Shown piece by piece: positions 26,025 through 47,757 of a DNA stretch of 64,000 nucleotides. The first letter of the stretch is position 1. Each line of letters opens with the position of its first letter. Below the pieces are notes generated by a model that was given only the letters and a program-made list of their open reading frames with translations, did not search any database and was not told the DNA's origin. A program made the translations under genes and the position numbers. Source of the DNA: Qipengyuania sp. (GTDB lineage Bacteria > Pseudomonadota > Alphaproteobacteria > Sphingomonadales > Sphingomonadaceae); contig JAIETR010000008.1 in assembly GCA_019745075.1 (NCBI GenBank), positions 2,063 to 66,062 on the forward strand, written 5' to 3'.

Positions 26025-26102
26025 GCCTCTCGACTTCGCTCGAGGCGAACGGCAGAGTAGGTTCCTTCCAACTTCCGTTCGTGTCGAGCGAAGTCGAGAC
26101 AC
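26025..26102. repeat. Palindromic repeat copy A2 (hairpin immediately upstream of GIY-YIG gene 1)
   Basis: Arms GCCTCTCGACTTCGCTCGAGGCGAACGG / CCGTTCGTGTCGAGCGAAGTCGAGACAC. Confidence 0.85.
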
Positions 26103-26119
26103 CTGACCCGGACTGTCCT

Positions 26120-26527
26120 ATGCCCATCTGGTGCTACATCCTGAAATGCGCCGACGGGAAATATTACACCGGGCACACCGATGACCTCGAGCGGCGGTAT
26201 GCCGAACATGTTCACGGCGGATACTGCGGGTTCACGACCAGGCGAAGGCCCGTAACCTTGATCTGGGCGCAGGAGTTCGCGACCCGTTACGAAGCGCTGT
26301 CGAGCGAGCTGGTGGTGAAGAAATGGTCGCGGGCGAAAAAGGAAGCGCTGGCGGCACAGGACTGGGCAAGTTTATCGCACTTCGCCAAGCCGCCGCGCGA
26401 GCGTGTCTCGACTTCGCTCGACACGAACGGGGAGGTTAGTGCTGGATCTCAGACCTCTTCGTGTCCAGAACAACCTCCGTTCGTGTCGAGCGAAGTCGAG
26501 ACACAAAGAGCAGAACCGCCATGCTGA
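26120..26527 (+). CDS. Small GIY-YIG (URI/YhbQ-like) nuclease; the ORF continues through downstream repeat A3 and ends overlapping the dnaG start
   Basis: MPIWCYILKCADGKYYTGHTDDLERRYAEHVHG...KKWSRAKKEAL; the GIY/YYTG...R...E pattern matches the UPF0213/YhbQ family. Confidence 0.8.
   Translation: MPIWCYILKCADGKYYTGHTDDLERRYAEHVHGGYCGFTTRRRPVTLIWAQEFATRYEALSSELVVKKWSRAKKEALAAQDWASLSHFAKPPRERVSTSLDTNGEVSAGSQTSSCPEQPPFVSSEVETQRAEPPC
26403..26504. repeat. Palindromic repeat copy A3 (hairpin at the 3' end of GIY-YIG gene 1)
   Basis: Arms GTGTCTCGACTTCGCTCGACACGAACGG / CCGTTCGTGTCGAGCGAAGTCGAGACAC are exact reverse complements; the stem is extended by GGAGGTT/AACCTCC. Confidence 0.9.
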
Positions 26528-28414: not shown

Positions 28415-30463
28415 ATGGCCACCACCAGCAAGCCCACCGACGATGGCGACGCGCCGCTGATCGAGCTCAACGACGCCGATATCAAGAAGCTGATCGCGAA
28501 GGCCAAGAAGAAGGGCTACGTCACCTATGACGAGCTCAATTCGGCGCTGCCGCAGGGCGAGATGAGCTCCGATCAGATCGAGGACATCCAGTCCGCGCTC
28601 AGCGACATGGGCGTCCAGATCGTCGAGAGCGACGAGGAAGGCGAGGCCGAGGGCGACCGCGACGACGAGGTCGAGGAGGTCTCCGCCGGCGACGATGGCG
28701 AGGACGAGGATGCCGGGGGCTCCGAACGCAAGCCGACCACCAATGTCACCCGCAAGCTCGCCGCGGGCGAGCGCACCGACGATCCGGTGCGCATGTACCT
28801 GCGCGAGATGGGCGCGGTCGAACTGCTGAGCCGCGAGGGCGAGATCGCGATCGCCAAGCGCATCGAGGCCGGGCGCGACATGATGATCATGGGGCTGTGC
28901 GAAAGCCCGATCACCTTCCACGCCATCATCCAGTGGTCCGACGCGCTCAACGCCGGCGAGATGCAGTTGCGCGAAATCCTCGACCTCGATGCGATGCTTT
29001 CCAAGGAGCCGCCCGCCGACAAGATGGCGGACGACGCCGAGGAAGAGGACGACGACGGCGAGATCTCCGAAGCCACCGCCGGCCCGACCATCCGCGAAGA
29101 GGAAGAGGTCGAGGACGAGCCCGCGCAGCGCGACGAGGACGACGAGGATGGCGAGGCTCCGCCGCCGCGGCGCGAGGAGGACGAGGAAGAAGACAACACC
29201 ATGTCGCTCGCCCAGATGGAGGCGGCATTGAAGCCCGAGGCGCTCGAGCGCTTCGCGCGCATCGCCGACTATTTCGGCAAGTTCGAAAAGCAGCAGGCCG
29301 AGCGGGTCGAGGTGCTCGGCCGCGGCGAGATTTACCCTCCCGCCAAGGAGAGGAAGTACGAAACGCTGCGCGAACAGCTCACCGCCGAGGTCGAGAGCGT
29401 GCAGTTCCACGCGACCAAGATCGAGTTCCTGGTCGACAACCTCTATGCCTTCAACCGCCGGCTGACCGCGCTGGGCGGGCAGATGCTGCGCCTGGCCGAG
29501 CGCCACAAGGTCAAGCGCGGCGAATTCCTCGACGCCTATATCGGCAACGAGCTCGACGAGGGCTGGCTGACCGATCGCGCCGGCAAGGACAAGAAATGGG
29601 CCGCCTTCGCCGACAAGGAGGGCGATGCGATCGAGCGCATCCGCCTCGAGATCAGCGACATCGCCAGCCAGACCGGCATGTCGCTCCCCGAGTTCCGCCG
29701 CATCGTCAACATGGTCCAGAAGGGCGAGCGCGAGGCGCGCATCGCCAAGAAGGAAATGGTCGAGGCGAACCTGCGCCTGGTGATTTCGATCGCCAAGAAA
29801 TACACCAACCGGGGCCTGCAATTCCTCGACCTGATCCAGGAGGGCAACATCGGGCTGATGAAGGCGGTCGACAAGTTCGAATACCGCCGCGGCTACAAGT
29901 TCAGCACCTATGCCACCTGGTGGATTCGCCAGGCGATCACCCGCTCGATCGCCGATCAGGCGCGCACCATCCGCATCCCGGTCCACATGATCGAGACGAT
30001 CAACAAGCTGGTCCGCACCAGCCGCCAGTTCCTCCACGAGGAAGGCCGCGAGCCCACCCCCGAGGAGATGGCGCAGCGCCTGTCGATGCCGCTCGAGAAA
30101 GTCCGCAAGGTGATGAAGATCGCCAAGGAGCCGATCAGCCTCGAAACCCCGATCGGCGACGAGGAGGACAGCCACCTCGGCGATTTCATCGAGGACAAGA
30201 ACGCGGTCATCCCCGTCGACGCCGCGATCCAGGCGAACCTCAAGGAAACCGTGACCCGCGTCCTCGCCAGCCTGACCCCGCGCGAGGAGCGCGTGCTGCG
30301 CATGCGCTTCGGCATCGGCATGAACACCGACCACACTTTGGAAGAGGTCGGCCAGCAGTTCAGCGTGACGCGCGAGCGGATCAGGCAAATCGAGGCAAAA
30401 GCGCTGCGCAAGCTGAAGCATCCGTCGCGGTCGCGGAAGATGCGCAGTTTCCTGGATCAGTAG
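28415..30463 (+). CDS. rpoD: RNA polymerase primary sigma factor (sigma-70)
   Basis: Acidic non-conserved region, then regions 2-4 ([32 protein letters not shown]...; [23 protein letters not shown]). Confidence 0.95.
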
Positions 30464-30495
30464 GGGCGCTGGAAATTATCCTCGCGCTGCGCTAG

Positions 30496-30723
30496 ATGCA
30501 AACCGTGGCAACGGCGCATAACCCCAAGGCTGTCCCTGAGGCCTTGATCCGCAAGATCGGCGCTCTGCCGCGCGCCCGCGTGGCCGAGGTCGAGGATTTC
30601 GTGGACTTCATCGGCCAGCGCGAAAGTGAAATCGCGCTCCGCACCGCCGCCCGCGACGCCAGCGCGCCCGCCTTCGCCAGAATCTGGGCAAACCCGGAAG
30701 ACGACGTCTACGATGCCCTCTGA
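30496..30723 (+). CDS. Putative antitoxin (DUF2281-like N-terminus)
   Basis: 75-aa ORF (LPRARVAEVEDFVDFIGQRE) overlapping the MazF-like toxin start by 11 nt. Confidence 0.55.
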   Translation: MQTVATAHNPKAVPEALIRKIGALPRARVAEVEDFVDFIGQRESEIALRTAARDASAPAFARIWANPEDDVYDAL

Positions 30724-31069
30724 CACCGGCGCGCTCGCGTTCGGCGATATCGTGCTCGTGCCCTTCCCCTTCACCGATCAAACCTCTGCCAAACGGCGCC
30801 CCGCGGTCGTCATCAGCGCAGAGGCGTATAACGCGCGCCATCCGGACGTGATCTTGATGCCGGTGACGAGCCAGCTTCGTGGCGATGCGCGCCCGGATGA
30901 TGTTGTGATCGATGGCTGGCAGGAAGCTGGTTTGCTCAAATCCTCCGCGATCAAGCCAGTCATCGCAACGCTCGAAGGATCGCTTGTCATTCGCCGCCTC
31001 GGAATGCTGGCCGAGCGAGATTGCAATACGCTGAGCGAGACATTGAACGCCATCGTGGGAACCGCCTGA
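30713..31069 (+). CDS. PemK/MazF-family toxin (endoribonuclease)
   Basis: [26 protein letters not shown]...VILMPVTSQ...SAIKPV.ATL is the PemK signature. Confidence 0.8.
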
Positions 31070-31281
31070 CCCCGCGCGAGGGACGCGTGCTGCGCAAGCG
31101 CCCTTCGGCGCTGCTCGGGACAGGCTTCGGCATCGGCATGAACACCGACCACACGCTCGAGAAAGTGGGCCAGCAGTTCAGCGTGACGCGCGAGCGGATC
31201 AGGCAAATCGAGGCAAAAGCGCTGCGCAAGCTGAAGCACCCGAGCCGGTCGCGGAAGATGCGCAGTTTCCTGGATCAGTAG
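31065..31281 (+). pseudogene. Detached, diverged copy of the rpoD 3' end (last about 64 codons plus an 8-codon in-frame insertion)
   Basis: Aligns to 30271-30463. Most substitutions are synonymous (e.g. TCG to AGC Ser, ACT to ACG, TTG to CTC). Same stop context CTGGATCAGTAG. Confidence 0.85.
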
Positions 31282-31368
31282 GACTCCTGCGAGTCGATTA
31301 CCATAGACATTGCCGGCGCGCTTTCCGACGTACTTGACCTGGAGAACAATGGGGGTACAACCCTAGGC

Positions 31369-32160
31369 ATGAGTTCCCGCGCGCTCGACCAATTCTATAC
31401 GCAAAGAGACATTGCCGCCGGATGTGTTGCCGATGTTCGGCGTTTCCTGGCATGTCGCCCGGATAGCTGGTTGTGGATCGAGCCTTCTGCCGGAGACGGA
31501 GCGTTCCTCGAGGCCATGCCCTTTCCTCGCATTGCCATAGATGTCGCCCCCAAGAGCCGCGACGTCTCCTGCATGGATTTCCTTCTGTGGAATCCTGGCC
31601 GCGCGACGCGAAAAATGGTTTTCATAGGGAACCCGCCATTCGGAAAGAATTCTTCGCTAGCGAGGCGGTTCTTCGATCACGCGGCGCGGTTTGGCGATAT
31701 CGTGGCGTTCATTCTGCCGCGTACGTTCCAGAAGCAAGCGTTCATCGACAGGCTTCACCCCAATATGCACCTGATGTTCGAACGAGTCCTGGCGGAAGAT
31801 TCGTTCCTCTTCGAGGACGAGGTGTATCGGGTTCCGACGGTTTTCCAGATTTGGGAAAAACGGTCGCTGGCGCGGCCAAAGATCGCTCGCCGATTCAGTC
31901 ACGACCACTTCTCGTTTGTCTCGGCCTCGATCGCGGATTTCGCGTTCCAGCGAGTGGGGGCGAGGGCCGGCCTCGTGTCGCGCGAAGGGCTCGCGAAATC
32001 TCCGCAATCTCACTACTTTCTGAAGAGTCACATTGCCCCGTCAAATCTCTTCGAACGGCTCGCGGCACTGGATTGGAACGCGGTGAAGTGGCGAACCGCC
32101 GGCAATCCCAGCATCGGGAAGGGCGAACTCGTGGCGGCTTATGCACAAAGCCACGGTTGA
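31369..32160 (+). CDS. N6-adenine DNA methyltransferase (motif I before NPPF, gamma-like order)
   Basis: IEPSAGDGAFL (SAM-binding motif I) and FIGNPPFGK (motif IV); lower GC. Confidence 0.75.
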   Translation: MSSRALDQFYTQRDIAAGCVADVRRFLACRPDSWLWIEPSAGDGAFLEAMPFPRIAIDVAPKSRDVSCMDFLLWNPGRATRKMVFIGNPPFGKNSSLARRFFDHAARFGDIVAFILPRTFQKQAFIDRLHPNMHLMFERVLAEDSFLFEDEVYRVPTVFQIWEKRSLARPKIARRFSHDHFSFVSASIADFAFQRVGARAGLVSREGLAKSPQSHYFLKSHIAPSNLFERLAALDWNAVKWRTAGNPSIGKGELVAAYAQSHG

Positions 32161-32795
32161 TGGCTGACCAGTCCCACGGAAAGCGGTTCGAGGATTTCGT
32201 CAAGGCCAGTGGTCTGTTTCCCGGATCGGCGGACCAGGGCCGCTCGCCCACATCGGGATTCGACATCGAGGCGCGGTTCGATCGGGAGAGGGGTCTGCCG
32301 ACCAGCGTCAAGACAACCGGCAACAAGGTCGTGGCGCTATCCGACGCGCGGCGATTTTTCGACAAAGGCGGGCCCTACCGCATGATCGTGGGCAGATACC
32401 TGCAAGTAGCGGACCGCAAGGAATTTGCCGAGGTTCACGAGTTCATCCTCACACCTCAGGCTCTCGCGTATTTGCAAGGATCATTGACCTCGCAAGTGGT
32501 CAACGATTTCCACAACGGCTTGCTTCTGAGCCGATTTCCCCTCGGAGCGCATGTCGAAGCGAGGCGCTGGGCGCGGGAACAGCGTTCACTTCTCGCGGCC
32601 CGTGCAACGCAAATCGTCCTCAACCCGAAAGTCGATTCGCAAAGTCAGCGCAGGCTCCAATGTTCGGTCAGCCTGGCATCGCTCTCGGAGGCCGCGAGGA
32701 GCTTTGGCGAGTATCGGCTGCACGCCGAGTCCTTTGGGAACTGGGTTTTGCCCATTGTCCAGAACAGCCCTCGCAGGCGCTTCAAGCCGCGATAG
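32160..32795 (+). CDS. Putative restriction endonuclease partner of the N6A methyltransferase
   Basis: 211-aa in-frame ORF; ATG overlaps the MTase stop (TGATG). Possible PD-(D/E)xK segment (GFDIEARFD...TSVKTTG). Family not recognised. Confidence 0.5.
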   Translation: MADQSHGKRFEDFVKASGLFPGSADQGRSPTSGFDIEARFDRERGLPTSVKTTGNKVVALSDARRFFDKGGPYRMIVGRYLQVADRKEFAEVHEFILTPQALAYLQGSLTSQVVNDFHNGLLLSRFPLGAHVEARRWAREQRSLLAARATQIVLNPKVDSQSQRRLQCSVSLASLSEAARSFGEYRLHAESFGNWVLPIVQNSPRRRFKPR

Positions 32796-32834
32796 GTCCT
32801 GCGCGATGTCGGCAGCCCGTTTCGGGTAGCGAGG

Positions 32835-32922
32835 GACCATGCCGCCATCGAGCTCAAGGCGGACGTGCGCGAATGGCTGCTCGAGCCGGTCGCGGAAGAT
32901 GCGGAGCTTTCCGGACCAATAG
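32835..32922 (+). pseudogene. Chimeric scar: rpiB 5' fragment (codons about 8-25) joined directly to a third copy of the last 12 codons of rpoD
   Basis: 32835-32886 matches 34409-34460 at 49/52 nt. 32887-32922 matches 30428-30463 at 31/36 nt, with 5 of 6 changed codons synonymous in the rpoD frame. Confidence 0.75.
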
Positions 32923-32943
32923 GCCGGGAGGTCGCGCGCCCGG

Positions 32944-34182
32944 TCAATCGAAGGCCTGTGCCGGAGCCGGCCGGCCGAAGAAGTAGCCCTGCCCGTAATC
33001 GACGCCGAGGTCGGCCAGCACGGCTTTCTCCTCGGCGCATTCGATTCCTTCCGCGATGACTTTGGATCCCATATCGGCCGCGAAGCGCACCAGGGCCCCG
33101 GCCAGCGCGCGGCGCGCTGCGTCGAGATGCACATCGCGGGTCAGGCTCATGTCCAGCTTGAGCAGATCGGGGCCGAGATCGACGAGGTGACGCAATCCCG
33201 CATAGCCCGCGCCGACATCGTCGATAGCGATCCGGGCGTGAGCTGAAAGGCGGGAAAGCGCCTGACGCAGCGCGTCGAAATTGCTCACTTTCTGGTGCTC
33301 TGTGACCTCGAGTACCAGCCGCATCCGGTCGGAGCCTTCGAGCAATTCCTCCAGCTGCCCCGACAAAATCGCTTCCGGCGAAGCGTTGAGGGAGAGATAT
33401 TGGCCCGGCGGTAAAGTTGCGCCCGTGGCCAGCGCCAGCCGCATGGCCAGCAGCTCGAGTTCCGGCCCCCGCCCGATCTCCGCCGCCTCGTTGAACCAGG
33501 CGTCGGGGCCGCGCAGCGCCGAATCGGCAAAGCGCGCGAGGCATTCCACGCCGCGTGCTTCTTCGGACACCAGCTCGACGATGGGCTGATGGAAGATGGT
33601 GATCGCCTCGCTCGCGAGCACCCCGCCGATTGCCGTTTCGAGCGTAAGCCGGCGAGCGTCCCCTTCCACGGACGTCTCGATTTGCTCCACCGCCAGTGCT
33701 GCGAAGGCGCGCAAAACGCCCAGGTCGCGCTCGGTCAGGCTGCGATCCGCCTTGCGGCTGAGACAGCAGAAGCTGCCATACAAGGTGCCGTCGGAAAGCC
33801 GCAGCGGCGTGTTGAGATGGCATCCCACGGGCAGAAATTCGGTGATCGCCATCGTCTTGGTGAACGGGAAATCGGCCGCGTCCTGGATCAGCTCGGGAAG
33901 CCGGCCTTCGGCGATGTGCCAGCAATAGCTGTCTTCGCGCCGGTCGACGAAACCCGGCCCCATCGGGAGTTCGAGATCGGACACCACGTTGGTGAGTTCC
34001 TTCATCCCACCATCGACGTAGCGCGAAACAAAAGCGATCTCGGCTCCCAGATGCTCCCGCACCGCAGCCAGGATACGATCGATCGAGTCATTCTCGACTG
34101 GCGCCAGCCGGGTGCCGGCGACGTTGAGAATTCGAGGCGATGGATGAGCGCTCATTCGTCCTGCCGATCTTATAGCGTGCAA
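32944..34182 (-). CDS. GAF-domain / EAL-domain c-di-GMP phosphodiesterase (alternative start 34155)
   Basis: EAL domain signatures (ECLARF, LSLNASP, EVTE, DDVGAGYAGL, KLD, EGIE, QGYFF) preceded by a GAF-like sensor. Confidence 0.85.
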   Translation of the reverse strand: MHAIRSAGRMSAHPSPRILNVAGTRLAPVENDSIDRILAAVREHLGAEIAFVSRYVDGGMKELTNVVSDLELPMGPGFVDRREDSYCWHIAEGRLPELIQDAADFPFTKTMAITEFLPVGCHLNTPLRLSDGTLYGSFCCLSRKADRSLTERDLGVLRAFAALAVEQIETSVEGDARRLTLETAIGGVLASEAITIFHQPIVELVSEEARGVECLARFADSALRGPDAWFNEAAEIGRGPELELLAMRLALATGATLPPGQYLSLNASPEAILSGQLEELLEGSDRMRLVLEVTEHQKVSNFDALRQALSRLSAHARIAIDDVGAGYAGLRHLVDLGPDLLKLDMSLTRDVHLDAARRALAGALVRFAADMGSKVIAEGIECAEEKAVLADLGVDYGQGYFFGRPAPAQAFD

Positions 34183-34386
34183 CCTGCCCCAGAAAGGCTA
34201 ACGAGCCACTAACCTCTGTCGAAGAGAACGATTGCCTTCGCTGGCCCCGACCAGCCGGCAACCCGGAGCGACTCGGCGGCGCCTGGGTCATGCTCGGCTC
34301 GCGCGACGACCGTGCATACATGTTGGAAGGCAGAGAATTGCGCCATCAGGGTGGCGGGACGCGTCACCCTGCACTATGGCCACCCC

Positions 34387-34851
34387 ATGCGCATCGCCAT
34401 CGCCTCCGACCATGCCGCCATCGACCTCAAGGCGGACCTGCGCGAGTGGCTGCTCGAGCAGGGGCACGAGGTCGCCGACCTCGGGCCAGGGACCGCCGAA
34501 AGCGTCGATTATCCCGACTTCGGCTACGATCTCGCCGCGGTGGTGGCCGAAGGCACCGCCCGGTTCGGCGTGGCGCTGTGCGGCAGCGGCATTGGTATCT
34601 CGATCGCGGTCAACCGCAATCCGCTGGTGCGCTGCGCGCGGGTCAGCGAACCGCTCTCGGCCGCGCTCGCCCGCGAGCATAACGACGCCAATGTCATCGC
34701 CCTGGGCGCGCGGCTGACCGGGCCCGACATGGCCAAGGCCTGCCTCACCGCCTTCTTGGGCACCGAATTCTCCGGCGGGCGCCACCAGCGCCGCGTCGAC
34801 AAGCTCGGCACCCCGCCCCACCCCATCGACAGGATCGAACCGCACCAATGA
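34387..34851 (+). CDS. rpiB: Ribose-5-phosphate isomerase B
   Basis: [18 protein letters not shown]...[17 protein letters not shown]...[12 protein letters not shown]-like core; stop overlaps the glyA ATG. Confidence 0.9.
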
Positions 34852-36299
34852 GCGCAGCCGACATATCGACGCCTTCCAAGTCCTTCGAGACGGCTCGGAC
34901 TTCGTCCTCGCCTCCTCAGGACGAACGGAGAGGGGGACAGATGTCTTCCAATTCCGTTCGTGCTGAGGAGGGGCCGAAGCCGAAGGCAGAGGACCTGTCT
35001 CGAAGCACATTGCGCGACGCTCCCGACCGCTTCTGGACCGACACGCTCGAGGCTGCCGACCCCGAGGTCTTCGCCGCCGTGCGCGGCGAGCTGAAGCGCC
35101 AGCAGGACAAGATCGAGCTGATCGCGAGCGAGAACATCGCCAGCCGCGCGGTGCTCGAGGCGACCGGGAGCGTGTTCACCAACAAATATGCCGAGGGCTA
35201 TCCGGGCAAGCGCTATTATGGCGGCTGCGACTATGCCGATGTGGTCGAGACGCTGGCGATCGAGCGCGCGAAACAGCTGTTCGGCTGCCGCTTCGCCAAT
35301 GTCCAGCCCAACAGCGGCAGCCAGATGAACCAGGCGGTGTTCCTGGCGCTGCTCCAGCCCGGCGACACCTTCATGGGGCTCGACCTCAACTCGGGCGGCC
35401 ACCTCACCCACGGCAGCCCCGTCAACATGAGCGGCAAGTGGTTCAATCCGGTCAGCTACGGCGTGCGCAAGGACAACGAGCTGATCGACATGGACGAGGT
35501 GATGGCGGTCGCGAAGGCGAACAGGCCCAGGCTGATCATCGCCGGCGGCACAGCCTATTCGCGGATCTGGAACTGGGCGGCGTTCCGCCACGTCGCGGAC
35601 GAGGTCGGCGCCACGCTGATGGTGGATATGAGCCATATCGCCGGGCTGGTGGCGGGCGGCGTGCATTCCTCGCCCTTCCCGCACGCGCATATCGTCACCA
35701 CCACCACGCACAAGAGCCTGCGGGGCCCGCGCTCGGGCGTGATCCTGTGGGACGAGGAGGAGCTGACCAAGCCGCTCAACATGGCGGTGTTCCCCGGGCT
35801 CCAGGGCGGGCCGCTGATGCATGTGATCGCCGCCAAGGCGGTCGCCTTCCGCGAGGCGCTGCGGCCCGAGTTCAAGCTCTACGCCCGCCGCGTGGTCGAG
35901 AACGCGCGCGCGCTCGCCGCCAGTCTCGAGGAGAATGGGCTGCGGGTGGTCTCGGGCGGGACCGACAACCATCTGATGCTGGTCGATCTTTCCGCGAAGA
36001 ATGTCACCGGCAAGGATGCCGAGAAGGGCCTCGACCGGGCCTGGCTCACCGCCAACAAGAACGGCATCCCCTACGACACCAGGAGTCCCTTCGTGACCAG
36101 CGGCATCCGCCTCGGCACGCCGGCGGGCACCACCCGCGGCTTCGGCGCGGGCGAGTTTCGCGCGATCGGCAAGCTAATCTCCGAGGTCGTCGAGGGCCTT
36201 GCCAAGAACGGCCCAGAGGGCGATGGTCAGATCGAGGAAAGCGTGCGCACCCGGGTGGCCGAGCTGTGCGCGCGCTTCCCGGTCTATCCGGGCCTGTAA
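34848..36299 (+). CDS. glyA: Serine hydroxymethyltransferase with a repeat-derived N-terminal insertion of about 46 codons
   Basis: [37 protein letters not shown]...[15 protein letters not shown] 34848 overlaps the rpiB stop (ATGA). Alternative internal ATG at 34941. Confidence 0.95.
34880..35008. repeat. Palindromic repeat copy B1 (long-arm variant) embedded in the 5' end of glyA
   Basis: Arms GTCCTTCGAGACGG...CCTCAGGACGAACGG / CCGTTCGTGCTGAGGAGG...CTGTCTCGAAGCAC. Confidence 0.85.
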
Positions 36300-37142: not shown

Positions 37143-38285
37143 ATGTCTTTTTTGACCTACATCCTGCGCTGCGCCGACGGCACCTATTACGTCGGTCACA
37201 CCGACAACATCGACAAGCGCTGGGCACAACATCAATTGGGCGAGCTTGGCGGCTACATCTCCGAGCGCCGGCCGCTCGAGTTCATGTGGGCGGAGGAAAT
37301 GCCTACGCGCGAGGAAGCCCTCGCCGCCGGACTGCGTATCAAGAAATGGTCGCGGGCGAAGAAGGAAGCGCTGATCGTGCAGGACTGGGATCGGCTTTCA
37401 CACTTCTCCATCCCGCCGAAAGAGCGCGGATCGGTCTCGGCTCCGCTCGACCGGGCCCCTCGACTTGGCTCGGGACGAACGGAGGAGGGGGATGAATTTC
37501 CTCCCGTTCGTTCTCAGCTTGTCGAAGGACAGGTTCCAGCAAAGCCGAGAACCCAAAAACCCGTCATCGTCCTTGTCCGTCCGCAACTCGGCGAGAACAT
37601 CGGCAAGGCGGCTCGCGCCATGCTGAATTTCGGGCTGACCGAGTTACGCCTGGTCGAGCCGCGCGACGGCTGGCCCAATCCCGCCGCCGGCCCCGCCGCC
37701 TCGGGCGCGGATGTGGTGCTGGAGCGGGCACGGGTGTTCGCCACCACCGCCGATGCGGTGGCCGACTGCGCACACATCTATGCCACCACGGTCCGCAAGC
37801 GCGGGGTGACCAAGCCGGTGCAGAGGCCGGAAGATGCTGCACGGAACATCCACCGGCAACCCGGACGAAGCGCGATACTGTTCGGGCCGGAGCGTTCGGG
37901 GCTGGAAACCGCCGACGTCGCCCTCGCCAGGACTATCATCACCGTGCCGATCAATCCCGCATTCGGCTCGCTCAATCTTGCGCAGGCGGTGATCCTGGTG
38001 GCCTACGAATGGTCCAAACTCGCGGAGCTCGCGCAGCCTACAGAGGAGGAATTGTTGCCTCCTGCGCCGCAGGGCGAGCTCGAGGGATTGATCGCTCACT
38101 TCACCCGGCTGCTTACCCCTAAAGGCTATTTCCTACCGCTCAGCCGTGCGGAAGCGACCCAGACAAACCTGCGCACGATCCTGACGAAACCGGGCTGGAA
38201 CCATCTTGAGGTACGCACCCTGCGCGGCGTCCTCAGCGCGCTCGAGCGAACGCCCTTGCCGCCGGTGAGCCAGGAGCGATCTTGA
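37143..38285 (+). CDS. Single 380-aa ORF: N-terminal GIY-YIG (YhbQ-like) nuclease, a repeat-encoded linker, and a C-terminal TrmJ/SpoU-family RNA 2'-O-methyltransferase
   Basis: N-terminus: MSFLTYILRCADGTYYVGHTDNIDKRWAQH...KKWSRAKKEAL. C-terminus: PVIVLVRPQLGENIGKAARAMLNFGL...ILFGPERSGL...SLNLAQAVILVAYE. No in-frame ATG/GTG/TTG between 37380 and the methyltransferase core. Confidence 0.75.
   Translation: MSFLTYILRCADGTYYVGHTDNIDKRWAQHQLGELGGYISERRPLEFMWAEEMPTREEALAAGLRIKKWSRAKKEALIVQDWDRLSHFSIPPKERGSVSAPLDRAPRLGSGRTEEGDEFPPVRSQLVEGQVPAKPRTQKPVIVLVRPQLGENIGKAARAMLNFGLTELRLVEPRDGWPNPAAGPAASGADVVLERARVFATTADAVADCAHIYATTVRKRGVTKPVQRPEDAARNIHRQPGRSAILFGPERSGLETADVALARTIITVPINPAFGSLNLAQAVILVAYEWSKLAELAQPTEEELLPPAPQGELEGLIAHFTRLLTPKGYFLPLSRAEATQTNLRTILTKPGWNHLEVRTLRGVLSALERTPLPPVSQERS
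37431..37530. repeat. Palindromic repeat copy A5 (3' of the GIY-YIG domain, inside the fusion ORF; has an extra partial arm)
   Basis: ...CCCCTCGACTTGGCTCGGGACGAACGG / CCCGTTCGTTCTCAGCTTGTCGAAGGAC. Confidence 0.8.
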
Positions 38286-47570: not shown

Positions 47571-47671
47571 CGAAAATCCGTGAATTGGGAGCGAACGGGA
47601 ATGACCGCGCGCTCTAGCATGGCCCGCTGTCGGCGCAATGAATAGCTTGGCGCGATGGCTGTGATCCCACC

Positions 47672-47757
47672 CCGTTCGTGTCGAGCGAAGTCGAGACACG
47701 CGCACATTCCGCACCGTATCTCGACTACGCGCTACGCGCTCCGCTCGATATGAACGG
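47672..47757. repeat. Repeat copy A6: the same arms in tail-to-tail order (CCGTTCG...GAGACAC, 16-nt spacer, GTATCTCGAC...GAACGG)
   Basis: The first arm is identical to 26075-26102; the second arm has an internal expansion (CTACGCG duplicated). Confidence 0.8.

What the first reader, a model, noticed from the sequence alone, without database searches (positions are those of the whole stretch)
30271..32922. Three copies of the rpoD 3' end delimit successive defence/addiction cassettes, and their divergence is mostly synonymous
The real rpoD end (30271-30463) is repeated at 31065-31281 and, for the last 12 codons, at 32887-32922. The MazF-type TA pair lies between copies 1 and 2. The N6A methyltransferase and putative endonuclease lie between copies 2 and 3. 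Differences between copies are predominantly synonymous in the rpoD frame. Copy 2 has ACT to ACG, TTG to CTC, GAA to GAG, GTC to GTG, CAT to CAC and TCG to AGC, against 3 replacements and one 24-nt in-frame insertion. In copy 3, 5 of 6 changed codons are synonymous. That pattern is expected if the extra copies were once functional rpoD ends in other lineages and arrived with the cassettes, rather than being local duplications that decayed. No integrase or recombinase gene is present. Inference: the conserved 3' end of rpoD acts as a homologous-recombination anchor where foreign cassettes accumulate in tandem.
Basis: partly seen in the sequence, partly recalled or inferred. Interest (0 to 1): 0.7.

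Follow-up and report, generated by a model that had tools for sequence, protein, structure and literature searches.

The report
Recombination-stacked gene cassettes behind rpoD
Three alternative versions of the DNA that follows the essential sigma-factor gene rpoD are stacked one behind another, each marked by a leftover copy of the gene's tail; the pattern recurs in other bacteria and suggests that ordinary homologous recombination, without a dedicated integrase, collects toxin-antitoxin and restriction genes at this spot.

Summary
The rpoD 3' end (30270-30464) recurs at 31064-31282, with a 24-nt in-frame insertion, and its last 37 nt recur at 32887-32922. Differences between copies are strongly synonymous (P=6e-5 and 0.004 by simulation).

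The locus is three "alleles" of the rpoD-rpiB spacer stacked head to tail. Each allele also occurs alone in a relative: rpoD-TA-orphan (L091-L093), rpoD-RM-rpiB (L085) and rpoD-EAL-rpiB (L094). The TA module recurs with the same toxin|rpoD joint in at least three other lineages. One of them (L173) carries four rpoD ends with RHS-toxin, TA and phage-like cargo.

The window's rpoD is itself mosaic, with a breakpoint about 450 nt before the stop (p=0.0005). Joint positions in rpoD vary (-37, -63, -193, -240). None of 48 candidate genes across the window encodes an integrase or transposase.

Best reading (confidence 0.6): illegitimate joints first create the orphans. Homologous recombination in the conserved rpoD tail then spreads and stacks the cassettes. 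This is a new variant of "insertion with long target duplication" and of displacement arrays. The mechanism is inferred, not shown.

The parts
28415..30463 (+). rpoD (682 aa), mosaic: about nt 1-1599 of the gene resemble L094, the last ~450 nt resemble L085/L006
   Evidence: ORF and tblastn. Informative-site max-chi2 breakpoint after gene position 1599, permutation p=0.0005.
30270..30464 (+). Copy 1: the functional rpoD 3' end (last 64 codons plus stop)
30464..30495 (+). 32-nt leader of the TA module; the motifs CTGGAAAT...GCGCTAGAT are conserved in L173, L091 and L093
   Evidence: Sequences read. The consensus sigma-70 scan did not call a promoter here.
30496..30723 (+). Putative antitoxin (75 aa, no Pfam hit), overlaps the toxin gene by 11 nt
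   Evidence: conserved partner of the toxin in L173 and L088-L093
30713..31069 (+). PemK/MazF-family toxin (118 aa); its stop codon TGA is supplied by rpoD sequence (GCC TGA CC, rpoD position about -193)
   Evidence: Pfam PF02452 1.3e-15. Homologues are 114-118 aa, so the toxin is not truncated. The same joint occurs in L173, L091/L092 and L093.
31064..31282 (+). Copy 2: orphan rpoD end (-193 to stop) with a 24-nt in-frame insertion at about 31100-31123. The 5' part is decayed (E>G, M>K, insertion, E>K). The 3' 137 nt are nearly identical to copy 1.
   Evidence: a homologous insertion (39 nt) lies at the same site in L173
31283..31368 (+). Leader of the RM cassette with TTGACC-N17-TACAAC; homologous to the rpoD-MTase spacer of L085
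   Evidence: alignment
31369..32160 (+). Type II DNA methyltransferase (263 aa), low GC (57-59%)
   Evidence: PADLOC MTase_II 1.2e-41; GC profile; 80% identical to P0002 in L085
32160..32795 (+). Putative type II restriction endonuclease (211 aa), start overlaps the MTase stop (ATGA)
   Evidence: PADLOC REase_II 3.9e-8; same-length partner gene in L085
32835..32889 (+). rpiB' : orphan fragment of the rpiB 5' region (about codons 8-26), joined to copy 3 at the microhomology CGAGC
   Evidence: family D11, 93% over 55 nt; alignments; blastn 94% over 52 nt
32887..32922 (+). Copy 3: orphan of the last 11 codons plus stop of rpoD (homology extends to 32882 against copy 2); 5 synonymous changes, 1 replacement
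32944..34182 (-). GAF-EAL (cyclic-di-GMP phosphodiesterase type) gene, convergent with rpoD. It occupies the same position in L094, where it follows an intact rpoD.
   Evidence: Pfam EAL 9e-43, GAF 3e-7; L094 layout
34387..34851 (+). rpiB, the conserved right flank of the variable spacer in Erythrobacteraceae-type genomes
   Evidence: Pfam LacAB_rpiB 8e-52; synteny dnaG-rpoD-[spacer]-rpiB-glyA-nrdR in L005, L006, L007, L011, L021 (rpoD-rpiB-glyA in the partial locus L040); rpoD-[cargo]-rpiB also in L085, L094 and L173

Best explanation
The rpoD-rpiB spacer of this sphingomonad (Erythrobacteraceae-like) genome is a recombinase-free accretion site. The window holds three alternative 'alleles' of the spacer joined head to tail:
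- A: rpoD tail + PemK/MazF TA pair.
- B: rpoD tail + type II RM + a piece of the rpiB 5' region.
- C: last 37 nt of rpoD + GAF-EAL gene + rpiB.

Step 1 (inferred). Incoming DNA from a related lineage pairs homologously inside rpoD. Its other end is joined illegitimately, at a microhomology, inside the last 40-240 nt of the recipient's rpoD. This is homology-facilitated illegitimate recombination or an equivalent event. The incoming piece carries a complete rpoD tail, so the essential gene stays intact. The old tail is pushed downstream as an orphan.

Step 2 (inferred from mosaic patterns). Once an orphan exists, it serves as a portable right-hand homology arm. The unit [rpoD 3' part - cargo - 5' part of orphan] can enter any genome with a similar rpoD tail, whatever lies downstream. 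Entry needs two homologous crossovers, or a circle plus one crossover. Each entry displaces the recipient's own tail, and new modules land upstream of older ones, which builds tandem arrays.

Shown: the repeats, their synonymous divergence, the single alleles in relatives, the recurrence of the TA module with an identical joint, the variable joint positions, the mosaic rpoD and the absence of recombinase genes. Inferred: the recombination pathway, the order of events and the means of DNA delivery.
For: Each allele exists alone in a relative:
- L085 has rpoD - 88 nt - MTase (80% identity) - REase - rpiB, with a leader homologous to window 31283-31368.
- L094 has rpoD - 26 nt - EAL(-) - rpiB.
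- L091/L092 and L093 have rpoD - TA - orphan.

The TA module is colinear between the window and L087/L173: 77% over 1.1 kb, including both rpoD ends. All copies share the toxin-stop|rpoD(-193) joint. TA pairs without rpoD ends also exist (L088-L090), so the rpoD ends are not part of the TA genes themselves.

L173 carries four rpoD ends that delimit a 48-nt empty slot, an RHS toxin cassette, the TA pair and phage-like genes, all lying before rpiB.

The two rpoD ends within one genome are as far apart as different genera (pS about 0.4) yet almost purely synonymous: 18:2 in L087, 18:0 in L091, dN/dS 0.06-0.07, the same as true orthologues.

Replacements and indels cluster in the 5' ~70 nt of the orphans, next to the joint. 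The window and L173 orphans share a homologous insertion there, but their 3' parts differ by 18 synonymous and 4 replacement codons. The 3' parts were therefore captured independently from functional genes, and the crossover points differ between genomes. That is the signature of homologous, not site-specific, exchange.

The window's rpoD switches nearest relative about 450 nt before the stop. It is L094-like at 191/297 informative sites before that point and L085-like at 39/59 after it (p=0.0005).

The rpiB'|copy 3 joint has the 5-nt microhomology CGAGC. Joint positions vary: -37, -63, -193, -240, and about -100 and -90 in L024 and L048.

The RM cassette has foreign GC content. No recombinase or transposase is found among 48 ORFs, and no tRNA gene lies nearby.
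Against: No transfer event has been observed; everything is comparative. Most comparison loci are metagenome contigs or MAGs, and the closest relatives are only 80-90% identical in RpoD. The breakpoint test therefore rests on distant references.

A 37-nt arm (copy 3) is very short for RecA-dependent exchange. The RM-to-rpiB' junction needs an extra, unexplained joint: rpiB' starts only at about codon 8, after 39 nt of unknown origin.

Vertical inheritance of one old TA insertion, combined with repeated gene conversion from the functional rpoD, could imitate part of the mosaic pattern.

In three independent modules the cargo's stop codon sits exactly at the joint. The model does not predict this.

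A recombinase acting in trans from elsewhere in the genome cannot be excluded.
Confidence: 0.6

Rival explanations
1. One-off scars only. Each orphan marks a single ancient illegitimate insertion (HFIR, NHEJ or template switching) that has since been inherited vertically. The arrays do not spread, the orphans have no role as homology arms, and gene conversion from the live rpoD keeps their 3' parts fresh.
For: The microhomology joint and the rpiB 'filler' fragment are typical of illegitimate repair. Copy 2's 3' 137 nt are nearly identical to copy 1, as gene conversion would give. L093's orphan is decayed, with a deletion and an in-frame stop. L024 and L048 orphans are 93-95% identical to their own rpoD.
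Against: In L087/L173 and L091 the orphan's 3' part is not like the resident copy (pS about 0.4), so conversion by the resident copy is not what keeps it intact. The same TA joint sits in genomes whose orphan 3' parts have independent functional-type ancestry. None of the six Erythrobacteraceae-type species representatives with the rpoD-rpiB layout (L005, L006, L007, L011, L021, L040) carries the TA module, so vertical descent would need many losses.
Confidence: 0.2
2. Site-specific accretion. The rpoD tail is an att site. The cassettes are integrase-less, cis-mobilizable remnants of integrative elements (CIME-like), inserted by an integrase supplied in trans. The surrogate rpoD tails are element-borne, as in phages that integrate into gene 3' ends.
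For: Direct repeats of a gene's 3' end with synonymous divergence are what element-borne surrogate ends look like. Tandem arrays are known for att-site accretion (established knowledge of the ICESt1/CIME system at the fda 3' end). L173 has terminase and TrbC genes among its cargo.
Against: Joints fall at different rpoD positions (-37, -63, -193, -240), and crossover points differ between genomes that carry the same module. No integrase is present in 64 kb. In the alphaproteobacterial proviruses found next to rpoD (L179, L180), the integrase abuts a tRNA gene downstream of rpoD, not rpoD itself. The RM and EAL alleles occur in relatives without any repeat.
Confidence: 0.12
3. Local tandem duplication of the rpoD tail (or of the whole rpoD-to-rpiB segment), followed by decay and by replacement of the duplicated interior.
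For: An rpiB-5'|rpoD-3' joint is the junction expected from a tandem duplication of the segment between those two points.
Against: The synonymous bias contradicts neutral decay of a local copy (P=6e-5 and 0.004). The three interiors are unrelated and have different GC content. Each interior occurs alone in a relative. Copy 2 shares variants with L085 rather than with copy 1.
Confidence: 0.04
4. The orphans are kept because they are expressed as small sigma-70 region 4 proteins that act on transcription as a decoy or modulator.
For: Gene callers predict 47-67-aa Sigma70_r4 ORFs on the orphans. Both insertions are in frame (24 and 39 nt). A genuine phage (L203) encodes a 172-aa protein with a sigma region 4 domain.
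Against: Copy 3 is only 12 codons long. L093's orphan has a deletion and a stop codon. L091's orphan has a frameshift near its start. No start codon or ribosome-binding context is conserved, and replacements accumulate in the 5' part.
Confidence: 0.03

Closest known systems
Insertion with long target duplication of restriction-modification units (Nobusato et al. 2000, cited in Furuta et al. 2010; Furuta et al. 2010, PMC2853133)
   Same: An RM pair (and here also a TA pair) is flanked by direct repeats of 37-217 nt. The empty site in relatives holds one copy. There are no mobility genes, and the repeat length varies. Those authors also proposed that the repeats allow amplification, release and re-invasion.
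   Different: Here the duplicated target is the coding 3' end of an essential housekeeping gene. The repeat copies come from different lineages (synonymous divergence), whereas the published cases are near-identical. Several unrelated cargos are stacked. One module recurs in several genomes with the same joint.
Displacement arrays at rhs, CDI and T6SS effector loci: orphan 3' ends and immunity genes (Kirchberger et al. 2017, PMC5361080, which cites Jackson 2009, Poole 2011 and Koskiniemi 2014)
   Same: A conserved 5' part anchors incoming DNA. The old 3' end is pushed downstream and retained. Successive events build arrays. Homology-facilitated illegitimate recombination was proposed as the mechanism.
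   Different: In those loci the displaced 3' end is the variable toxin domain and the arrays store immunity genes. Here the displaced end is the invariant part (sigma region 4.2), and the cargo genes are free-standing defence or addiction genes, not fusions.
Homology-facilitated illegitimate recombination in natural transformation (de Vries & Wackernagel 2002; Prudhomme et al. 2002; Meier & Wackernagel 2003; cited in PMC5361080 and PMC3240628)
   Same: There is one homologous anchor (the mosaic breakpoint in rpoD) and one microhomology joint (CGAGC).
   Different: HFIR is an experimentally defined pathway. Here it is only inferred from end products, and the route of DNA uptake in this organism is unknown.
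Tandem accretion of integrative elements and cis-mobilizable elements at the 3' end of a housekeeping gene
   Same: Arrays of cargo blocks are delimited by repeats of a housekeeping gene's 3' end. Some blocks lack an integrase.
   Different: Those repeats are short, with a fixed att core cut by a tyrosine integrase. Here the repeats are long, the joints vary and no integrase is present.
Core-gene-flanked hotspots of horizontal transfer and defence islands
   Same: The content between two conserved core genes (rpoD and rpiB) varies and is enriched in TA, RM and toxin systems.
   Different: Ordinary hotspots exchange by double crossover in both flanks and leave no orphan copies. Here orphans record stacking rather than replacement.

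Membership tests
Insertion with long target duplication (Furuta 2010 criteria) | Inserted genes flanked by direct repeats longer than 30 bp | tested here: met
   TA lies between copies 1 and 2 (194 and 218 nt). RM lies between copy 2 and copy 3 (37-42 nt).
Insertion with long target duplication (Furuta 2010 criteria) | The related genome without the insert has a single copy of the repeated sequence at the same place | tested here: met
   L006 and L007 have rpoD followed by 230-280 nt and then rpiB, with one rpoD end. L085 and L094 also have one rpoD end.
Insertion with long target duplication (Furuta 2010 criteria) | No integrase, transposase or other mobile element in or next to the insert; insert shorter than 20 kb | tested here: met
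   Pfam scan of all 48 candidate ORFs of the window. The inserts are 0.6 and 1.5 kb.
Homology-facilitated illegitimate recombination | Homologous exchange on one side of the acquired DNA | tested here: met
   Change of nearest relative inside rpoD about 450 nt before the stop, permutation p=0.0005. The references are distant, so this is an inference.
Homology-facilitated illegitimate recombination | Short (3-10 nt) microhomology at the other joint | tested here: inconclusive
   CGAGC is shared at rpiB'|copy 3. For the toxin|copy 2 and REase-side|rpiB' joints the parental sequences are unknown.
Homology-facilitated illegitimate recombination | Dependence on RecA and on DNA uptake (transformation, conjugation or transduction) | not testable with these tools
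   Needs genetics.
Site-specific integrative element (att-flanked island, ICE or CIME) | Integrase or recombinase gene in the element or array | tested here: not met
   None in the 64-kb window, nor on L001, L085, L091 or L173 according to precomputed Pfam.
Site-specific integrative element (att-flanked island, ICE or CIME) | Fixed crossover core shared by all repeats | tested here: not met
   Orphans start at rpoD -37, -63, -193 and -240. The exchange point inside the TA-module orphan differs between genomes.
Integron cassette array | IntI integrase, attI site and attC imperfect inverted repeats at cassette ends | tested here: not met
   No integrase. The repeats are direct copies of coding sequence. 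The insertion hairpin is no better than shuffled sequence (z=0.35 and -1.33).
Type II toxin-antitoxin, PemK/MazF family | Toxin with PemK/MazF fold domain | tested here: met
   PF02452, E=1.3e-15, covering 3-108 of 109 profile positions.
Type II toxin-antitoxin, PemK/MazF family | Small upstream antitoxin gene that overlaps or abuts the toxin gene | tested here: inconclusive
   A 75-aa ORF overlaps the toxin gene by 11 nt and is conserved with the toxin in 6 loci. It has no Pfam or PADLOC family hit.
Type II restriction-modification system | DNA methyltransferase paired with an adjacent endonuclease | tested here: met
   PADLOC MTase_II 1.2e-41 and REase_II 3.9e-8; the genes overlap (ATGA); the pair is conserved in L085. 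Enzymatic activity and specificity were not tested.
rhs/CDI-type C-terminal displacement array | Displaced 3' ends encode variable toxin domains followed by cognate immunity genes | tested here: not met
   The displaced ends encode the invariant sigma-70 region 4 (Pfam Sigma70_r4, 1.7e-13). The cargo genes are separate.

The most novel reading that the evidence does not exclude
The TA-plus-orphan unit, and by extension the other blocks, would be a class of recombinase-free selfish cassette that 'homes by homology'. It carries a copy of one of the most conserved coding stretches in bacteria (sigma-70 region 4.2 and the rpoD stop) as a built-in, portable recombination arm. It can therefore insert behind rpoD in any related genome regardless of synteny, keep the essential gene intact, and be hard to lose because of its addiction or defence cargo. 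Orphan rpoD tails in unrelated Alphaproteobacteria (L024, L048) would be independent inventions of the same strategy.
Probability: 0.3. Interest if true: 0.75.

Novelty: new variant of a known kind. Interest (0 to 1): 0.6.

Why it matters
Most genomic islands are explained by integrases, transposases or simple replacement between two core-gene flanks. This locus shows how ordinary homologous recombination, seeded by rare illegitimate joints, can stack defence and addiction genes without replacing earlier ones. The orphan gene tails keep a readable record of the order of arrivals.

If the orphan tail works as a portable homology arm, it would help explain how small TA and RM units with no mobility genes move between species. 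That question has been open since 'insertion with long target duplication' was described. The model is also directly testable, with a marked cassette, recA mutants and long reads.

There is a practical consequence too. rpoD is widely used as a phylogenetic marker, and its 3' ~450 nt here has a different ancestry from the rest of the gene.

Tried and rejected
1. A hairpin or attC-like structure in the 24/39-nt insertion. Folding is no better than for shuffled sequences (z=0.35 and -1.33). The insertion sequence occurs only once in the window.

2. Consensus promoter and terminator scan of 30300-34500. Nothing was called at the conserved leaders, and only two weak hits appeared elsewhere. Promoter roles of the leaders therefore rest on conservation alone.

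3. Plasmid vehicles. blastn (distant mode) against PLSDB found only bona fide rpoD genes on chromids for the TA module and nothing for the RM cassette.

4. Phage or integrase targeting of rpoD. 529 IMG/VR contigs contain an RpoD C-terminus, but these are host flanks. In L179 and L180 the integrase abuts a tRNA gene downstream of rpoD. L203 is a real phage with its own sigma region 4 protein and is unrelated.

5. Population polymorphism inferred from contigs that break at copy 2 (L002-L004). The unaligned contig ends are Nextera adapter sequence, so they carry no information.

6. L070 looked like a third genome with an extended rpoD match. The extra match is a small ORF resembling sigma region 1.1, not a 3' orphan.

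7. L086, holding the MTase homologue P0004 (64% identity), has no rpoD nearby, so more distant relatives of the RM pair sit in other contexts.

8. The origin of the 39 nt between the REase stop and rpiB' (32796-32834) could not be traced.

Full report
**1. What is in the sequence**

rpoD occupies 28415-30463 on the + strand. Its last 194 nt (30270-30464, copy 1) recur at 31064-31282 (copy 2). The match is 92% over the first 38 nt and 93% over the last 159 nt, and the two blocks are separated by a 24-nt in-frame insertion at about 31100-31123. The last 37-42 nt recur again at 32882-32922 (copy 3). No further copy exists in the 64-kb window.

- Between copies 1 and 2 lie a 75-aa ORF and an overlapping PemK/MazF toxin gene (Pfam 1.3e-15).
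- Between copies 2 and 3 lie a type II methyltransferase (PADLOC 1.2e-41) and an overlapping putative restriction enzyme (3.9e-8). This pair has 57-59% GC against 65-72% around it.
- After copy 3 comes a convergent GAF-EAL gene, followed by rpiB, glyA and nrdR.

Directly 5' of copy 3 lies a 55-nt copy of rpiB codons 8-26 (32835-32889, 93% to 34408-34462). It is joined to copy 3 where both parents read CGAGC.

An independent metagenome contig (L001), 99.4% identical over 16.3 kb, has the same layout. The array is therefore not a misassembly.

**2. Is the synonymous bias real?**

Yes.

| Comparison | Synonymous codons | Replacement codons | P (random substitutions) |
|---|---|---|---|
| Copy 2 vs copy 1 | 6 | 3 | 6e-5 |
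| Copy 3 vs copy 1 | 5 | 1 | 0.004 |

Several changes, such as TCG>AGC and TTG>CTC, need more than one step through non-synonymous intermediates. That is typical of long evolution under purifying selection in separate lineages.

**3. What relatives show**

A scan of species-representative genomes with RpoD returned 80 loci. Erythrobacteraceae-type genomes keep the order dnaG-rpoD-[spacer]-rpiB-glyA-nrdR. The spacer ranges from 230-280 nt (L007, L006: empty) to 0.74-2.8 kb with unrelated genes:
- L005 and L011: a periplasmic protein.
- L011: also a ParA-like gene.
- L021: a GMC oxidoreductase.
- L040: a low-GC protease.

Each of the three blocks in the window also exists alone in a relative:
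- The closest MTase homologue (80% identity) lies in L085 in the order rpoD - 88 nt - MTase - REase - rpiB. Its leader is homologous to window 31283-31368.
- The closest EAL homologue lies in L094 in the order rpoD - 26 nt - EAL(-) - rpiB.
- The TA pair follows rpoD and is itself followed by an orphan rpoD end in L091/L092 and L093.

The window is therefore A + B + C stacked, and each rpoD end belongs to the block on its right.

**4. The TA module is a recurrent unit**

Window 30229-31284 is colinear with L087/L173 at 77% identity, including both rpoD ends. In the window, L173, L091/L092 and L093 the toxin gene ends in a TGA supplied by the rpoD sequence GCCTGACC (rpoD -193). Toxin homologues elsewhere are 114-118 aa and end just before this point. 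Related TA pairs without rpoD ends exist in other contexts (L088-L090). The joint therefore arose once and has since spread or persisted.

L173 (17.4 kb) has four rpoD ends. The order is: the gene end, a 48-nt empty slot, an orphan from -63, a ~9-kb block of Big_9/RHS toxin genes plus a TrbC gene, an orphan from -240, the TA pair, an orphan from -193, four phage-like genes including a terminase, and then rpiB.

Orphan rpoD ends also follow rpoD in two unrelated Alphaproteobacteria. The cargo is a DUF4160/DUF2442 pair in L024 and a Zn-peptidase gene in L048.

**5. Evidence on mechanism**

(a) Joint positions in rpoD vary: -37, -63, -193, -240, and about -100 and -90 in L024 and L048. This argues against a fixed att core.

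(b) Within one genome, the two rpoD ends flanking the TA module differ by 18:2 (L087) and 18:0 (L091) synonymous:replacement codons. With pS about 0.4 and dN/dS 0.06-0.07, they are indistinguishable from comparisons between orthologues of different genera. One copy in each genome was therefore a working rpoD end of another lineage until recently.

(c) Replacements and indels cluster in the 5' ~70 nt of the right-hand orphans. The window and L173 share a homologous insertion there (24 and 39 nt at the same site). Yet the 3' parts of these two orphans differ by 18 synonymous and 4 replacement codons. The 5' part thus travels with the module, while the 3' part has been captured independently from functional genes. 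The exchange point lies at different places in different genomes. This is what homologous exchange within the repeat predicts, and not what a site-specific crossover predicts.

(d) The window's rpoD changes nearest relative about 450 nt before its stop. It is L094-like at 191/297 informative sites before that point and L085-like at 39/59 after it (max-chi-square permutation p=0.0005). This fits a left-hand crossover inside rpoD when the foreign blocks arrived in an L094-like (allele C) background.

(e) The rpiB'|copy 3 joint has a 5-nt microhomology, which marks an illegitimate first-time joint.

(f) None of 48 candidate ORFs in the window encodes an integrase, resolvase or transposase. The nearest tRNA gene is 25 kb away.

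**6. Most likely mechanism (confidence 0.6)**

First-time events are homology-facilitated illegitimate recombination or an equivalent. Incoming DNA is anchored homologously in rpoD and joined at a microhomology inside the recipient's rpoD tail. The donor piece carries a complete tail, so rpoD stays intact and the old tail becomes an orphan.

After that, the orphan acts as a portable right-hand arm. Two homologous crossovers, or a circle plus one crossover, move [rpoD 3' part - cargo - orphan 5' part] into any genome with a similar rpoD tail. Each entry displaces that genome's own tail. Successive arrivals land upstream of earlier ones and build arrays.

The repeats, their ancestry and the recurrence are shown. 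The pathway, the order of events and the route of DNA delivery are inferred.

**7. Rivals**

- Ancient scars inherited vertically, with gene conversion (0.2). Against it: the orphan 3' parts in L173 and L091 are unlike the resident copies.
- Site-specific accretion by an integrase in trans (0.12). Against it: variable joints, no integrase, and repeat-free alleles B and C in relatives. I tested whether phages target rpoD. 529 IMG/VR contigs contain an RpoD C-terminus, but in the alphaproteobacterial cases examined the integrase abuts a tRNA gene that follows rpoD.
- Local tandem duplication with decay (0.04). The synonymous bias and the single alleles in relatives contradict it.
- Expressed region-4 peptides (0.03). 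Truncated, frameshifted and decayed orphans argue against it.

**8. Comparison with what is known**

The closest described phenomenon is 'insertion with long target duplication' of RM units. It was defined by direct repeats longer than 30 bp, one copy at the empty site, and no mobility genes (Furuta et al. 2010, PMC2853133). All three criteria are met here.

The closest described dynamic is the displacement array at rhs, CDI and T6SS loci, for which HFIR was proposed (Kirchberger et al. 2017, PMC5361080). Here, however, the displaced end is the invariant part of a housekeeping gene and the cargo is free-standing.

The differences that make this a new variant are:
- The anchor is the essential sigma-factor gene.
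- The repeat copies have different lineage origins.
- Several unrelated cargos are stacked (TA, RM, EAL; RHS and phage-like genes in L173).
- One module recurs across lineages with the same joint.

**9. Unexplained**

- In three independent modules (window TA, L024, L048) the last cargo gene's stop codon sits at the joint.
- rpiB' begins only at about codon 8, after 39 nt of untraceable sequence.
- The 24/39-nt insertion is flanked by CTTCGG repeats and has no significant structure.

**10. Verdict**

Novelty: a new variant of a known kind. Interest: 0.6.

Noticed in passing
window 30713-31069 / 31064; L024 12509-12520; L048 12882-12890: In three independent rpoD-tail modules the stop codon of the last cargo gene lies exactly at the joint with the orphan rpoD fragment. 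In the window and L024 the TGA appears to be supplied by rpoD sequence. Random illegitimate joints would not be expected to be this tight.
   Followed up: partly
window 31100-31123; L173 10128-10166: The in-frame insertions in the TA-module orphans (24 nt here, 39 nt in L173) sit at the same site and are bounded by CTTCGG(C/G) direct repeats, like a small footprint or slippage product. Predicted hairpins are not better than for shuffled sequence.
   Followed up: partly
window 26026-26101, 26404-26503, 47671-47698; GIY-YIG genes at 26081-26527 and 37143-38285: A palindromic repeat that reads STSLDTNG on one strand and SSEVET on the other flanks a small GIY-YIG nuclease gene just upstream of dnaG. 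It recurs 21 kb away. A second GIY-YIG domain is fused to a SpoU methylase downstream of nrdR.
   Followed up: no
window 34911-34971: A 19-nt inverted repeat (95% complementary, 23-nt loop) lies in the extended 5' region of the glyA ORF, just after rpiB. Relatives' glyA matches begin about 20-30 codons further in, so this may be an inserted palindromic element rather than coding sequence.
   Followed up: no
L173 260-372: Between the rpoD stop and an orphan of the last 63 nt of rpoD lie only 48 nt. This looks like an 'empty' cassette slot, possibly the scar of a lost cargo.
   Followed up: no
L070 12049-12228: A 59-aa ORF directly after rpoD resembles the N-terminal sigma-70 region 1.1 (…GKVTVADLNEAIPEDTTSSEQIEAVM…). 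It would be a stand-alone copy of the opposite end of the protein.
   Followed up: no
L203 5406-5924: An AT-rich phage contig with baseplate genes encodes a 172-aa protein whose C-terminal ~65 residues are a close copy of sigma-70 region 4.2, fused to an unrelated N-terminus.
   Followed up: no
L179 4230-5712; L180 395-2476: In other Alphaproteobacteria a tRNA gene (CAU anticodon type by eye) follows rpoD and is occupied by integrative elements: a tyrosine integrase in L179 and a large serine recombinase in L180. This explains why hundreds of IMG/VR 'viral' contigs end in rpoD.
   Followed up: partly
L003 3937-3957; L004 1-21: Two public metagenome contigs end in Nextera transposase adapter sequence (CTGTCTCTTATACACATCT), that is, untrimmed adapter in deposited assemblies.
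   Followed up: yes
L024 11975-12239: The DUF4160-type gene of the L024 cargo appears frameshifted. An N-terminal piece (MPTISSFYGIAIRTYY…) and the Pfam-matching C-terminal piece lie in different frames, so that cassette may be decaying.
   Followed up: no
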